NCBI RefSeq assembly: GCF_004010195.1
Contig: NC_057752.1
Coordinates: forward strand, 6,398,044 to 6,444,165
Length of the DNA: 46,122 nt
Origin: Chiloscyllium plagiosum
Taxonomy: Eukaryota
Direction: 5' to 3'
This document shows, piece by piece, positions 5,316-42,276 of the stretch. The translations under genes were made by a program, and so were the position numbers. The notes below the pieces were generated by a model. It had not been told where the DNA came from. It saw only the letters and a list, made by a program, of their open reading frames with translations, and did not search any database. Every line of letters begins with the position of its first letter. Position 1 is the stretch's first letter.

Positions 5316-6480
5316 CGTTTCAATTAAGTCACCTCCGACTCTTATGAACTCCAGAGGATACGGGCCTGACCTTTCCTCAGAGGGCAATCCATTCATTAGT
5401 CTAGTAAACCCTATATGAACTGCTTCCAACACATTAACATCTTTCTGCAAGTATGGTGACCAGCATTGCACACAGTACTTCAGATGTGGTCCCAATGCAC
5501 TGCTATTCATGCAGTGGGCCATCCAGATTTTTCTGCATCTCAGTGCTCTGCAATTTCTAACCATTTAGATAATACGCTTTTTTTCTGCCAAAAATGAACA
5601 ATTTCACTTTTTAACATTGTACTCCATTTGCCAGATCTTTGTCCACTCACTTAACCTATCTATATTCCTTTGTAGGCTCCTTATGTCTTCTTCACAACGC
5701 ACTTTCCTACCTATCTTTGTGTCATTAGCAAATTTAGCTGCCAGACCTTCAATCCCTTCATCCAAATCATTTGTGTAAATTATAAAGCGTCGAGGCCCCA
5801 GCACCAACCCCTGTGGTACACCATATGTGACATCCAGCCAGCATGAAAAAGACCCATTTATTCATACTCTGCCTCCTGGTGGCCAGCCAATCTTCTGCCC
5901 AAGCCAATGTTACCCCAACACCATAACCTTTTATTTTCCACAATAACCTTTGCTATGGCACATTTGATAATGTCTTCTGGAAGTCTAAATACATCTACTT
6001 GTTCTCCTTTATCTACAGTACAAGTTACTTCTTCAAAAGAACATCAAGAAATTAGTTAAATATGATTTTCCTTTGACACAACCATGCTGGCTCTGCCCGA
6101 CTACCTTGAACTTATCCAAGTACCCTGCTATAATGACAGAGATTGAGCTGTTTTATAGTTTCCTGCTTTCTGCTTCCCTTGTGATACCAAAGCAAACTAT
6201 CTGTTCCTCCATTACAAACTCCTCAGCTTCATTATCAACATTTAACTCTTCAAATATCTGAAGACACTTTTCTGTTTTAATATTGTTGGTTCTCATTTTT
6301 TCCCCTCCTAGTTAATCTTTTAATAATTCCTTGCTTTATGAAAATTAAACATGCTGTCCAATCTCCTGAGTTGCCACTTACCTTTGCACAATTCTGTTTC
6401 TTTCCTTTGAGTCTGATAGCATCTTTGACTTTTTAAAGTTAATGACAGATGGCAGGTCCGTCCCTTAGAATGCTTCTTAT

Positions 6481-6723
6481 TCAAAGTTTGGGTGAAGATT
6501 TGTAGCTCGGGTGCTCGTTGTTGGACCTGGACCCAATATACCGGCCACTACAGCGGAGAGCTGAAACTGACAACCGGAAGCGGCAGGGACAGGCCACTAT
6601 AAATGCCGGAGGAAACACCACAGAAGCGCTTCACAGGAGGCTCTCAAGCACTGAGGATGTCACCTAGACAGGGGAAGAAACGTTTGCAACAAAACTTTCC
6701 AGCTCGGCGAACAGAACCACAAC
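6481..6723. mobile_element. Penelope/Poseidon-type PLE: inverted tail plus 3' repeat, 12-bp TSD
   Basis: TSD AATGCTTCTTAT (6469-6480) / AATGTTTCTTAT (6724-6735); sequence matches the 3' end of 21170-21409. Confidence 0.88.
6648..6687 (+). ncRNA. Minimal type-I hammerhead ribozyme (stem II closing base mutated)
   Basis: GCA CUGAGGA UGUCACC UAGACA GGGGAA GAAAC GUU UGC. Confidence 0.7.
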
Positions 6724-40400: not shown

Positions 40401-42276
40401 TGAGCCTCCCCCATTGCCAAACCCTAACCACCCGACGCCTGGAGGAAGATCGCCTCATTTTCTGCTTTGAGACCCTATAACCACAAGGGATTAATGTGGA
40501 TTTCACCAGTTTCGTCATTTCCCCTCACCCCACCTTATCCAGTCCCAAGCCTCCAACTCGGCACCGCCCTCTTGACCTGCCAATCGCCTTTCCCATCTAT
40601 CCACTCCACCCTCCTCTCTGACCTATCACCTTCATCGACCTCCTTCCATTTATCTCTCAGCACACACCACCACCCCCCACCCCCTCCGGCCCACAAGCCT
40701 CATTCCTCATTTCAAGATATAGAATGCTAAACAGAATTATAATTTGGAAACAAATTTTAAGCCTGGATTCAGTCTAGAACGCAAAAATAAATAATAACAA
40801 TCTTGGCACATCATCTGAAACATGACAAATTTTAAAAGAATTCACGGTATCATACAGGATTTATTACTTCAGCATTTAGATTGTTATGAATAGAATTCAA
40901 ATCTGGGTCATAAAGTTAGCAATTACACAACCAATACAAATCAGGATCAACTGTTAAATTTACTCAGCACTTTCAATCATTGAGTTTACAATTTATGCAA
41001 TTCCATAAAGTCACTTCCCACCTGCCAAGTTGGGACATACAGGTACACATTACACTGCTAGATGAATTATTTTAGGAGCAGTTTGGTGCAAGTGCTCCAT
41101 ATACAGCCCAAAACCATTTTCCTTTAAACCTTAAATGCAATTTATAGAACCAGCCATACTGAAAGTTAAAATTTCTCCTTAACATATAATACATATTTAT
41201 AAACAGAAAGTATTCTCCACCACTAAGTTTAGATTAGATATTCATGTTAGTTAATTGATCACAGCCACAAGCATTGTACAGGTTAATTGTAGCTCTTTCA
41301 AGACACTTGAGCAAGGGGCACACGTGATGACCACGTGGTCAAACAGCCCAAGACCACTCACGATTTTGGTTCAGAGACAAGCATGGGATTATCAATGCCT
41401 TCAGGAAATAAGGGGTACAGGGAGAAAGAGTAAAGGTATTTTGCCGCTGCACATCCTCGCTCTGAACTTCAACTAAGAATCTAAGAAACAAAAGTGTTTC
41501 AAAATACGATCCAATCTTGAAATAAACAAAAGATTCCCAAGTAAAACGGAGAAGTAACCTCTGTGAAAAAGAGGGCTAACGTTTGAAATCAATTCATCAG
41601 AACTGAGTTAAAGCCTGAAACGTTAACTCAGTTTTTCCCCTCACAAGTGCTATCTGACTCGAATTTTTCTCGCATTAAAAAAAAACAATTAAATCCGAAT
41701 TGCCGACCATTTCCATCATTTTCTTTGTTTTTAATGCTTGGATTAAAAACATTTGTGGATTCTGATTTTGCATTGATGAATATGTAAAATCAACCAAGTC
41801 GAGAAACCAACGTTGCCAAAAAAAATCTCCTTCAGAAAAAGGCATGTTCACCCTTAAGGAAGAGAACAGAGGACCATGCTGGCGGCTGCCATAAGGCGCC
41901 AGATTCTGGCCCCATCTCCTCGTGGTCGGGCAGAGTGCGATTGAGGCTTTGGGGAGGGGTGCATGAGGGAAGAGGCGCCGTGTTTTTCTCTGCCGCAGTG
42001 GACAGATCGGTGGTTGCCGCCTGGACGAGCCGAGTCGAGCCAACTCGAGTCGGACCTCCTGGTGCCGCGGCCTCCCCGTTCTCCATGCGCCCACATGGCA
42101 ACACCGAACTCATAAGGCCCGATCCTGTTGTAGGCTCCGCTATCCCGATGTCGCATGCCTCCCATTCTTTCTTAGAGACCCCCACACTCACGGTTGGCGA
42201 TGTCTCCGCCCATCTTGTACTTGGTCACCACCAAGTCCTCGGCGATGGTCTGTTCCTGGCTCTCATCGTCCGACAT
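16377..42276 (-). CDS. PA2G4: Proliferation-associated protein 2G4 / ErbB3-binding protein 1 (EBP1), spliced CDS, 13 exons, 395 aa
   Basis: Manual splicing of 13 minus-strand exons (85,129,106,70,93,64,79,79,134,95,128,60,66 nt; all GT-AG; phases consistent) gives an uninterrupted [32 protein letters not shown]...NEENEAGD*. It is recognisable as PA2G4 along its full length. Confidence 0.98.
17373..17432 (-). CDS. PA2G4: PA2G4 exon 12 ([19 protein letters not shown][V]); polybasic tail
   Basis: atttctag acceptor; tandem donors AAG|GTG|GTAAGT (exon ends at 17376 or 17373). Confidence 0.93.
17750..18085 (-). mobile_element. CR1-type LINE 3' fragment in intron 11
   Basis: Reverse complement of the CR1 3' end and tail. 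Confidence 0.7.
18584..18711 (-). CDS. PA2G4: PA2G4 exon 11 ([43 protein letters not shown])
   Basis: cttttccag acceptor; AAG|GTAAGT donor; 128 nt. Confidence 0.97.
20213..20252 (-). ncRNA. Minimal type-I hammerhead ribozyme, sense to the PA2G4 pre-mRNA
   Basis: GCA CUGAUGA UGUCGCC UAGCCA GGGGAC GAAAC GUU UGC. Confidence 0.85.
21295..21334 (+). ncRNA. Minimal type-I hammerhead ribozyme
   Basis: Identical to 20213-20252 on the opposite strand; begins immediately after the PLE ORF stop codon. Confidence 0.85.
21977..22124. mobile_element. About 150-bp miniature PLE dyad (second family)
   Basis: Inverted arms AAAAATCACAACACCAGG.TATAGT / ACTATAACCTGGTGTTGTGATTTTT around a hammerhead; imperfect TSD TCTTACTAAGAAAGTT / CCTTACTAAAAGGTT. 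Confidence 0.75.
22015..22049 (+). ncRNA. Minimal type-I hammerhead ribozyme (AGCU palindromic stem III, CUA triplet)
   Basis: UAC CUGAUGA AGGAG CAGCA CUCC GAAAG CUA GUA. Confidence 0.8.
22885..23852 (-). mobile_element. Older Penelope/Poseidon-type PLE fragment (RT C-terminus, GIY-YIG, decayed hammerhead at about 22947-22986)
   Basis: [26 protein letters not shown] is homologous to the 20753-21409 ORF; the terminal repeat is homologous to the other copies. Confidence 0.8.
24438..24750 (-). mobile_element. Young CR1-type 3' fragment nested in the older CR1
   Basis: [22 protein letters not shown]; same family as 10925-11441. Confidence 0.85.
25771..25865 (-). CDS. PA2G4: PA2G4 exon 10 ([32 protein letters not shown])
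   Basis: ttttcaaag acceptor; AAG|GTGAGA donor; 95 nt. Confidence 0.97.
26037..26170 (-). CDS. PA2G4: PA2G4 exon 9 ([44 protein letters not shown])
   Basis: gtctttag acceptor; AG|GTATGT donor; 134 nt. Confidence 0.97.
26660..27280 (-). mobile_element. Decayed CR1 LINE fragment in intron 8
   Basis: Reverse-strand RT remnants ([18 protein letters not shown]). Confidence 0.7.
27480..27558 (-). CDS. PA2G4: PA2G4 exon 8 ([27 protein letters not shown])
   Basis: ttatgtag acceptor; AAG|GTGAGG donor; 79 nt. Confidence 0.97.
27990..28476 (+). mobile_element. CR1-type LINE 3' end in intron 7
   Basis: [29 protein letters not shown] and a tail. Confidence 0.8.
30082..30160 (-). CDS. PA2G4: PA2G4 exon 7 ([26 protein letters not shown])
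   Basis: tttctttcag acceptor; AA|GTAAGT donor; 79 nt. Confidence 0.97.
30780..31020 (+). mobile_element. pogo/Tigger-like non-autonomous DNA transposon, left end
   Basis: CAGGGGAACCTTGATTATCCAAACG resembles the terminal repeat of 13709-13819; shared ttcagataat motif. Confidence 0.45.
31880..31943 (-). CDS. PA2G4: PA2G4 exon 6 ([21 protein letters not shown])
   Basis: acttcag acceptor; AAG|GTGAGA donor; 64 nt. Confidence 0.97.
32528..32620 (-). CDS. PA2G4: PA2G4 exon 5 ([31 protein letters not shown])
   Basis: ttttccag acceptor; CAG|GTAAGG donor; 93 nt. Confidence 0.97.
33351..33420 (-). CDS. PA2G4: PA2G4 exon 4 ([24 protein letters not shown])
   Basis: ttttgcag acceptor; AAG|GTATGT donor; 70 nt. 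Confidence 0.97.
34161..34256. repeat. Degenerate 21-bp tandem repeat (TGCGCCTTTTGCAGAACAGTT)
   Basis: Units at 34198-34218 and 34219-34239, a partial unit at 34240-34256, and diverged units from 34161. Confidence 0.75.
34701..34806 (-). CDS. PA2G4: PA2G4 exon 3 ([35 protein letters not shown])
   Basis: tttaaag acceptor; GT|GTAAGT donor; 106 nt. Confidence 0.97.
35654..35782 (-). CDS. PA2G4: PA2G4 exon 2 ([43 protein letters not shown])
   Basis: tttgtag acceptor; G|GTAAAT donor; 129 nt. Confidence 0.97.
36485..37130 (+). mobile_element. CR1-type LINE 3' end in intron 1 (young)
   Basis: [50 protein letters not shown]. Confidence 0.9.
37711..37998 (-). mobile_element. HE1-like SINE 3' part, interrupted by a miniature PLE dyad (37744-37864)
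   Basis: SINE tail split by the insertion; imperfect 14-bp TSD CAGTGTGGAAGCAG / CAGCGTGGATACAG. Confidence 0.7.
39379..40707. mobile_element. Neptune-type PLE inverted dyad with GIY-YIG remnant, 15-bp TSD
   Basis: Perfect TSD CATTTCAAGATATAG (39364-39378 / 40708-40722); encodes [27 protein letters not shown] and the Cys linker [10 protein letters not shown]. Confidence 0.9.
39471..39506 (-). ncRNA. Minimal type-I hammerhead ribozyme, sense to the PA2G4 pre-mRNA (intron 1)
   Basis: AUUC CUGAGGA AGGGC UUAU GCCU GAAAC GUU GAGU. Confidence 0.82.
42192..42276 (-). CDS. PA2G4: PA2G4 coding exon 1 ([28 protein letters not shown])
   Basis: ATG at 42276-42274; donor C|GTGAGT after 42192; lies in the CpG island. 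Confidence 0.97.

What the first reader, a model, noticed from the sequence alone, without database searches (positions are those of the whole stretch)
6469..40722. Recurrent TSD-flanked inverted Penelope dyads carrying hammerhead ribozymes, from three different families
Seen: seven insertions share one architecture (6481-6723, 7837-8275, 9326-9565, 20177-21409, 21977-22124, 37744-37864, 39379-40707). Two 3' portions of the element are joined head-to-head; one arm keeps the complete 3' tail and the other is clipped short of it. The unit is flanked by a 12-16 bp TSD. In the four Poseidon-type copies the clipped arm always stops at ...AGAACCACAAC and the full arm ends at ...AAACTTTGA(A). Established: PLEs form inverted pseudo-LTR structures with a tail extension and carry minimal hammerheads. 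Inference: this stereotyped geometry across Poseidon-type, Neptune-type and a third family points to a common two-ended priming mechanism. It produces MITE-looking retro-insertions as small as 120-240 bp that are essentially ribozyme plus tail.
Basis: partly seen in the sequence, partly recalled or inferred. Interest (0 to 1): 0.75.

Follow-up and report, generated by a model that had tools for sequence, protein, structure and literature searches.

The report
Head-to-head Penelope retroelement stubs in shark
These are real but ordinary truncated insertions of Penelope-like jumping genes, laid down in a known back-to-front pattern; two of them hint that one RNA is copied from two start points at once.

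Summary
All seven insertions are real. They lie in or 3' of a shark PA2G4 gene and are 5'-truncated Penelope-like element (PLE) ends from three families (Poseidon-like, Neptune-like, one without protein evidence), with 11-15 bp target duplications. For 6481-6723 a related species' contig shows the empty site with one target copy. For the Poseidon-like family, reads show fixed arm ends genome-wide and about one tail per two arms. 'One architecture' is overstated: four are canonical inverted pairs; two (6481, 37744) have a tail-only arm and no inverted repeat; one (39379) stops about 90 nt early. Intact hammerhead motifs occur in five of seven. The inverted copy, one-sided tail, target duplication and minimal hammerhead are published (Arkhipova 2013, Cervera 2014, Craig 2021); a lizard Poseidon protein nicks and extends both strands from two RNA start sites (Frangieh 2024). 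Best reading: both ends of a staggered cut prime cDNA, one from each site, and the truncated cDNAs are joined. The copies form at insertion and are not mobile. Unproven addition: both primings use one RNA. The scan noted this pattern elsewhere in this genome.

The parts
6469..6480 (.). i1 left target copy (right copy 6724-6735, 11/12)
   Evidence: single copy at the empty site in a contig of organism C (X12 record 10)
6481..6523 (-). i1 tail-only arm, family A; stops 4-6 nt past the internal start site
6524..6723 (+). i1 clipped arm, family A, ends CACAAC; hammerhead core at 6651 with C11.1-to-A at 6676
   Evidence: reads carry C at 6676 in 11755 of 13292
7837..8202 (-). i2 tailed arm, family A, intact minimal hammerhead (core at 7946); target copies 7825-7836 and 8276-8287 (12/12)
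8203..8275 (+). i2 clipped arm; begins at the first base of the hammerhead core; blunt junction
9326..9458 (-). i3 tailed arm, family A second subfamily, intact hammerhead (core at 9438); target copies 9314-9325 and 9566-9577 (11/12)
9460..9565 (+). i3 clipped arm, intact hammerhead (core at 9492); reaches 12 nt further upstream than the tailed arm; junction is a 12-bp palindrome
20177..20746 (-). i4 clipped arm, family A third subfamily, intact hammerhead (core at 20249), 96-nt in-frame internal deletion at 20414-20421; target copies 20164-20176 and 21410-21422 (13/13)
20735..20752 (.). i4 junction: 18-nt near-palindrome (8-bp arms, 2-nt loop), a short fold-back before the join
20751..21409 (+). 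i4 tailed arm: end of RT thumb, GIY-YIG endonuclease, hammerhead (core at 21298), ATG at 21304 opening 35 codons through the tail
21977..22015 (-). i5 clipped arm, family B (38 nt); degraded target copies 21962-21976 and 22126-22139
22013..22125 (+). i5 tailed arm, family B, intact minimal hammerhead (core at 22018); 3 nt shared at the junction
37744..37832 (-). i6 clipped arm, family C, hammerhead core broken; inserted in a SINE/LINE-type repeat; target copies 37730-37743 and 37865-37878 (11/14)
   Evidence: paralogous repeat copies (4712-4827 and three more) hold the target once
37839..37864 (+). i6 tail-only arm, preceded by a 6-nt filler; starts 4-6 nt short of the clip site
39379..40166 (-). 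i7 tailed arm, family C: CX4CxxC linker, GIY-YIG endonuclease, intact hammerhead (core at 39502); target copies 39364-39378 and 40708-40722 (15/15)
40167..40707 (+). i7 short arm; ends at the start of the hammerhead core, about 90 nt before the family clip site; 14% non-CpG divergence from the other arm

Best explanation
These are dead-on-arrival insertions of endonuclease-bearing Penelope-like retrotransposons, built at the moment of insertion. (1) The GIY-YIG endonuclease nicks both strands of an AT-rich target 11-15 nt apart, leaving two 3' overhangs (inferred from the duplications; both-strand nicking shown in vitro for the lizard relative PAc). (2) Each 3' end primes reverse transcription of the element RNA, one at the distal start site (tail end) and one at the internal start site about 30-40 nt upstream, in the A/C-rich loop of a hairpin closed by the tail (fixed end-points shown here; two start sites shown for PAc; one site per end is inferred). 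(3) Both cDNAs stop early and their ends are joined bluntly, by a few shared bases, or with a short fold-back or filler (junctions shown; the repair route is inferred). This gives target - tailed arm - junction - clipped arm - target. When the distal RT stops at the internal site, a tail-only inversion results. The hammerhead is a passenger that lies just upstream of the start sites.
For: Geometry: after each target copy the strand that carries the 3' end reads antisense to the element in all 7. Empty site: X12 record 10 aligns 6038-6468 then 6724-6925 without a break in the record, skipping 255 nt = 243 element + 12 target. Raw reads of organism A (27635 laid): the six loose-end rows shown are the tail end (6479/6480/6481: 799/2035/891 reads), the clip site (6724/6725: 1296/1956) and the body continuation (6524: 6324); flanks are AT-rich with agreement 0.35; depth 6408 in the tail against 12854 just inside the clip site, ratio 0.50. 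All 6 copies with canonical ends are tail+clip (1/64 if ends chose sites independently at 50:50). In 4 of 7 each arm holds sequence absent from the other, so neither is a copy of the other. The 4 family-A junctions all differ. PAc is a predicted dimer, cleaves and extends both strands, prefers 5'-ATT-3', and starts at two sites that bound the tail (PMC11167929); by eye its printed template has the same layout as family A.
Against: In vitro PAc showed no difference in start site between strands, so the one-site-per-end rule rests on genomic counts. The 0.50 ratio could be biased low because a 44-nt piece is harder to lay reads on; 1283 loose-end rows and 112 joints were not shown. i7 stops elsewhere, and 4 of 11 PLE pieces have one arm only. 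Later deletion at palindrome centres could also make asymmetric arms. Reads tested family A and one locus only. The start-site hairpin is no more stable than shuffles (z from +0.6 to -1.7). Only 2 of 4 family-A internal primers end in ATT.
Confidence: 0.75

Rival explanations
1. Self-priming or snap-back: one cDNA (or an antisense RNA) folds back and copies itself to make the second arm, as proposed for rotifer Penelope elements.
For: Palindromes at the junction of i3 (12 bp) and i4 (18 nt), as in PMC3846280. Arms of one insertion are near-identical (0/133 for i4, 1/95 for i3). In i2, i5 and i7 the short arm lies within the span of the tailed arm.
Against: In i1, i3, i4 and i6 the clipped arm reaches further upstream than the tailed arm (about 200, 12, 46 and 90 nt) while the tailed arm holds the tail, so neither can be the other's template without a later deletion. 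The i4 fold-back explains 8 nt, not the arm.
Confidence: 0.1
2. Insertions were all long symmetrical dyads, and later deletion at the palindrome centre plus gene conversion produced the short, asymmetric and tail-only forms.
For: Long inverted repeats are unstable (general knowledge, no call). i4 carries a 96-nt internal deletion in one arm. Removal of one arm down to the base of the inverted repeat would also give a tail-only arm.
Against: i1 is young (1% non-CpG from i2; absent in organism C) yet has no inverted repeat left; i4 keeps two inverted stretches of 247 and 287 nt at 98-99%. It does not explain the fixed outer ends.
Confidence: 0.1
3. The small dyads are non-autonomous mobile units (MITE-like or retrozyme-like) copied as a whole.
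For: They look like MITEs: 120-240 bp, terminal inverted repeats in some, target duplications; about 13,000 family-A arms are estimated from read depth.
Against: 4 of 4 family-A junctions and 2 of 2 family-C junctions differ; two units have no inverted repeat; no recurrent internal junction stands out among the 15 joints shown, which are read-through into the tail or weak (112 not shown).
Confidence: 0.03
4. Assembly artefact (fold-back chimeras).
For: Inverted repeats are hard to assemble; no listed contig spans the whole of i1, and its internal junction was not seen in the rows shown.
Against: Contigs from another study of organism A cross the left (5900-6507) and right (6700-7047) borders of i1, though with only 27 and 24 nt inside the element, below the tool's 31-nt bridging rule; the empty site exists in organism C; arms differ by CpG-type changes; duplications match their own partner only.
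Confidence: 0.02

Closest known systems
Canonical EN+ PLE insertion unit with inverted 5'-truncated copy and one-sided 30-40 bp tail (Craig et al. 2021, PMC8557442 Fig. 2 legend; Arkhipova et al. 2013, PMC3846280, Pen2a_Av and Pen2)
   Same: Head-to-head inverted copy, tail at one end only, short target duplication (8-10 bp in the rotifer), palindromes at the junction, heavy 5' truncation.
   Different: Here both arms are truncated, down to 120 bp in all, with no full ORF or direct pLTR; duplications are 11-15 bp; tail-only arms are not described in the passages read; those papers ascribe the structure to self-priming or endonuclease resolution.
PAc, Poseidon from Anolis carolinensis (Frangieh et al. 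2024, PMC11167929)
   Same: ATG at the start of hammerhead stem II with the cut site 25 nt (here) or 26 nt after it; A/C-rich internal site in a loop closed by a 7-bp stem; ACAACAAC at the internal site; tail ending in TTGAA; AT-rich targets (by-eye comparison with the printed template).
   Different: PAc was tested in vitro, this family only in genomic copies. The paper reports no strand difference in start site and, in the three of four parts read, does not link the two sites to inverted pairs.
Minimal PLE hammerheads (Cervera and De la Pena 2014, PMC4209133)
   Same: Type I core, extra base between positions 9 and 10.1, G10.1-C11.1 pair, palindromic 15.2-16.2 with no loop, thousands of copies, pairs on opposite strands 100-700 bp apart.
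   Different: Helix I is only 3-4 bp here; no activity was tested; two of seven insertions lack an intact motif.
L1 twin priming and dual priming (Meyer et al. 2010, PMC2837659)
   Same: Both nicks prime cDNA; inverted fragments inside one target duplication; variants in which one arm is only the tail.
   Different: L1 internal priming is at variable sites and its two fragments do not overlap (internal deletion); here the internal site is fixed and arms usually overlap, which needs strand displacement or a second template.

Membership tests
EN+ Penelope-like elements | [quoted passage not shown] | tested here: met
   Family [11 protein letters not shown]...YIGQT with downstream His; 79-80% identical to shark proteins that carry PF00078 and/or PF26215. 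Family [11 protein letters not shown]...YIG, 73% to P0017 over 39% of the query. The RT core itself is not in these insertions. Pfam alone gave 0 hits for 10 fragments.
EN+ Penelope-like elements | Minimal hammerhead in the terminal repeat | tested here: met
   7 motifs against 0.03 by chance, in all three families; cleavage not tested.
EN+ Penelope-like elements | Inverted 5'-truncated copy, tail at one end, target duplication | tested here: met
   tails about 40 nt (A), about 30 in the one decayed copy (B), 30-32 (C).
EN+ Penelope-like elements | Full-length partial tandem (pLTR-ORF-pLTR) source copy | not testable with these tools
   No genome held; none in the window. The open frame from the hammerhead ATG through the tail in 3 of 3 full arms fits such a source.
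Penelope/Poseidon clade (family A) | No CX2-5CxxC zinc-finger-like linker between RT and EN | tested here: met
   Motif absent in 5 of 5 family-A relatives scanned and in the window's linker.
Neptune/Nematis clades (family C) | CX2-5CxxC linker upstream of EN | tested here: met
   CHCRKCKTC (CX4CxxC) just upstream of the EN in the i7 tailed arm. P0017 has lost this stretch. Neptune rather than Nematis is inferred from the vertebrate host.
Poseidon and Neptune clades | Placement in an RT phylogeny with reference elements | not tested
   No named reference RT sequences were at hand.
Clade of family B (21977-22125) | Any protein motif | tested here: inconclusive
   No coding sequence in i5; filed as PLE-like by hammerhead, tail and geometry only.
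MITE or non-autonomous mobile unit | Same internal structure repeated at many loci, with terminal inverted repeats | tested here: not met
   All junctions differ; i1 and i6 have no inverted repeat.
Non-LTR retrozymes | Head-to-tail tandem monomers with a hammerhead | tested here: not met
   No direct tandem of any arm in the self-comparison; definition from the abstract listing of 10.64898/2026.07.22.740005.

The most novel reading that the evidence does not exclude
PLE insertion is a programmed twin priming on ONE RNA: the two subunits of the RT-endonuclease dimer sit on the two start sites of a single hairpin-tail module, each site is used once per insertion, and the distal RT either displaces the first cDNA (overlapping dyad) or collides with the internal RT (tail-only inversion, 2 of 7 here). 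This single rule would explain the one-sided tail, the strict tail+clip pairing (6 of 6; read ratio 0.50), the near-identity of the two arms, and the head-to-head inversions, in both Poseidon-like and Neptune-like families. The alternative is two RNAs, possibly paired through the palindromic hammerhead helix III.
Probability: 0.35. Interest if true: 0.6.

Novelty: new member of a known kind. Interest (0 to 1): 0.27.

Why it matters
The structure itself is textbook for PLEs. What these copies add is a test bed: papers on PLEs call the transposition cycle undefined, and give different origins for the inversion and the tail. A shark genome with roughly 13,000 arms of one family, clean target duplications and empty sites in relatives allows a direct count of end pairings and tail-only arms, which separates one-RNA, two-RNA and snap-back models. 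In practice, repeat annotators should not call these units MITEs, microRNA hairpins or retrozymes.

Tried and rejected
Whole-genome copy table: no genome held. Collection scans for family-A motifs: 0 matches in viral contigs and metagenome contigs; a window scan with a faulty pattern gave 0 and carries no information. Rfam: no hammerhead family hit; mir-873, mir-1419 and mir-34 hits at i3 and i4 are far below gathering score and reflect the hairpins. Pfam: 0 of 10 fragments. Stability of the start-site hairpin: not above shuffles; its apparent compensatory change in the copy at 22885-22955 can be CpG decay, so it is not counted as evidence. Ribozyme cleavage as the source of arm ends: no arm in the window begins or ends at a predicted cut site, and none of the six loose-end rows shown for the raw reads lies there. 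A general pile-up of 5' ends at the hammerhead: 3 of 10 arms start within 5 nt of the core, but family-A read depth falls only 10% between 6644 and 6618. Discordance between the perfect 15-bp duplication of i7 and its 14% arm divergence as a sign of two source RNAs: probability 0.10 by chance, rejected as weak. Target duplications for three single-arm copies (3451, 22883, 43679): none above background; the fourth (14078) was not scanned. Organism B gave no contig bridging i1 among the rows shown. Sequence look-up in earlier findings: nothing.
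Full report
Setting. The window holds a PA2G4 (Ebp1) gene on the minus strand, coding exons from 42276 down to 16380. The best named relatives of the gene and of the elements come from carpet sharks (Rhincodon, Chiloscyllium, Hemiscyllium, Stegostoma), so the host is inferred to be one. 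Insertions i6 (37744) and i7 (39379) lie in intron 1, i4 (20177) and i5 (21977) in the intron between 25760 and 18730, and i1-i3 (6481, 7837, 9326) 7-10 kb past the last coding exon found. No whole genome is held.

Observation. Mapping each insertion on a window copy of its family confirms seven two-armed units whose arms are 3' parts of the element with their 5' ends meeting. Target duplications are 11/12, 12/12, 11/12, 13/13, 9/11, 11/14 and 15/15; five are reached by at most 0.1% of 2995 random flank pairs, while i5 (3.3%) and i6 (1.5%) are weak, and every left flank except that of i5 (6.0 against 5.5) scores clearly best with its own right flank. i6 sits in a repeat whose four paralogous copies in the window hold the target once. 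Four units (i2-i5) are the canonical form: a tailed arm and a clipped arm that overlap as an inverted repeat. i1 and i6 are different: the tailed arm is only the tail (44 and 26 nt), stopping 4-6 nt past or 4-6 nt short of the clip site, so there is no inverted repeat. i7 has a short arm that ends about 90 nt early. Four more PLE pieces (3451, 14078, 22883, 43679) show one arm only, so 7 of 11 are two-armed.

Families. Family A (i1-i4) encodes the end of an RT thumb and a GIY-YIG endonuclease with the CCHH motif and no cysteine linker, the pattern of Penelope/Poseidon (definition in PMC8557442). Family C (i6, i7) has a CX4CxxC linker before the endonuclease, the pattern of Neptune/Nematis. Family B (i5) has no coding sequence. 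No tree was built. A descriptor for minimal type I hammerheads with a palindromic helix III finds 7 motifs against 0.03 per shuffled window, in five insertions; they show the features listed in PMC4209133. In family A an ATG at the start of stem II opens 34-35 codons through the tail in 3 of 3 full arms, as in the lizard element PAc, where the tail is the start of the next copy's frame. By eye, the PAc template printed in that paper has the same core, an ACAACAAC at the internal site, a 7-bp stem around it and a TTGAA end. In the minimum-energy folds the clip site of families A and B lies in a 21-25 nt loop closed by a stem from the tail, and family C can fold likewise in some copies, but these folds are no more stable than shuffles.

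Reads. Of 22 runs listed, four were laid on 5900-7400, which holds i1 only. A 636-nt contig of organism C aligns to 6038-6468 and then to 6724-6925 with consecutive record positions (434, 435): it skips the 243-nt element and one 12-nt target copy. This is the empty orthologous site, and it shows a true duplication. Contigs from another study of organism A cross both outer borders, with 27 and 24 nt inside the element; the internal junction was not among the rows shown. Raw reads of organism A (27635 laid, about 4% of the run) sample family A genome-wide: depth about 13,300 on the hammerhead against about 1 on unique flank, so roughly 13,000 arms. The six loose-end rows shown are at the tail end, the clip site and the point where the body continues; 1283 rows over all four runs were not shown. 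Flanks at both ends are AT-rich and unlike each other. Depth in the tail is 0.50 of depth just inside the clip site. So arm ends are not random, and about half of the arms carry a tail, with the caveat that a 44-nt piece is harder to lay. The 6725 row mixes clipped arms with reads that run on into the tail.

Mechanism. The strand that leaves each target copy reads antisense to the element, which is what results if both 3' ends of a staggered cut prime cDNA. PAc cleaves and extends both strands, is a predicted dimer, prefers 5'-ATT-3' and starts at two sites that bound the tail. All four family-A internal primers can end in a T that pairs with the next template A (one reading for i2), and two end in ATT. 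All six units with canonical ends pair a tail with a clip (1/64 under independent 50:50 choice). In four of seven, each arm has sequence that the other lacks, which a simple snap-back cannot give. Junctions are blunt (i1, i2), palindromic (i3), fold-back (i4), share 3 nt (i5) or carry a 6-nt filler (i6), and all differ, so the units are made at insertion. Within a unit the arms are near-identical (0/133 in i4, 1/95 in i3, 4/75 in i2, where the pairwise alignment leaves only CpG-site changes) while units of different subfamilies differ by 7-12%; this fits one template, but also successive subfamilies or gene conversion. The two tail-only arms are what a collision of two RTs on one RNA would leave, like the tail-only twin-priming variants of L1 (PMC2837659); two cases cannot exclude chance truncation or later deletion.

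Known or new. The inverted copy, the one-sided 30-40 bp tail, the duplication, junction palindromes and minimal hammerheads on opposite strands are all in print. I found no paper that ties the two start sites to the two ends of an inverted pair: searches (1 paper; 4; 2, listings only, neither on PLE mechanism by title; 0; 1); for sharks, searches (listings only). The library lacks most subscription papers, including the older Penelope structure papers, so this is weak. What I read: PMC11167929 parts 1-3 of 4 and supplements 1-2 (figure files with little text; supplement 3 and the GenBank file unread, and Fig. S2 may bear on strand use); PMC4209133 parts 1-2 of 4; PMC8557442, PMC8969392, PMC2837659 and bioRxiv 10.64898/2026.07.22.740005 passages only (preprint supplements closed); PMC3846280 passages and Discussion. 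Earlier notes of this scan report the same pattern in many other windows of this genome (122 notes fit the look-up); a search for tail-only or twin-priming notes gave none.

Verdict. Real, mostly ordinary: new shark members of a known kind of insertion. Interest 0.27. The one-RNA reading is open at about 0.35 and can be settled by a genome-wide count or a two-barcode assay.

Noticed in passing
window 16380-42276 (-): PA2G4/Ebp1 gene with at least 12 coding stretches matched; all PLE copies are intronic or outside the coding span.
   Followed up: partly
window about 3236-3538 (+): Family-B copy that appears to carry upstream body, clipped at the same site as i5, with no tail arm or duplication found; a G-run at 3184-3221 lies at its left.
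   Followed up: partly
window 22883-23850 (-): Older fourth family, Poseidon-like (65% to family A), single arm with part of the RT; same hairpin layout near its end.
   Followed up: partly
window 43679-44480 (-) and 14078-14179 (+): Two more family-C pieces: an 800-nt tailed single arm between two copies of a short repeat, and a strongly decayed end module.
   Followed up: partly
window 20414-20421: The 96-nt deletion in the i4 clipped arm keeps the frame and joins two imperfect 8-nt repeats (6 of 8 alike); it may have arisen during reverse transcription or later.
   Followed up: partly
proteins P0006, P0007, P0010, P0015: Annotated shark isoforms of MAP3K7, NT5DC1, CUEDC2 and a PF01066 protein match the family-A endonuclease piece; P0006 ends in it, in frame. 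Possible exonisation or gene-model artefact.
   Followed up: no
window 6594, runs X11 and X12: Contigs of organisms B and C share a different upstream sequence at 6594, pointing to a further family-A subfamily with the same hammerhead and end module.
   Followed up: no
window 8203, 22013, 37832, 40707: Three arm 5' ends and the odd 3' end of the i7 short arm all fall within about 5 nt of the first base of the hammerhead core, not at the cut site.
   Followed up: partly
window 5024-5314, 8790-9109, 10930-11440, 17749-17928, 24436-24749, 28004-28487, 36616-37126: Seven pieces of a LINE-type 3' end family (67-87% alike) and five of a short repeat (4712, 37712, 43340, 44486, 45879); not examined.
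   Followed up: no
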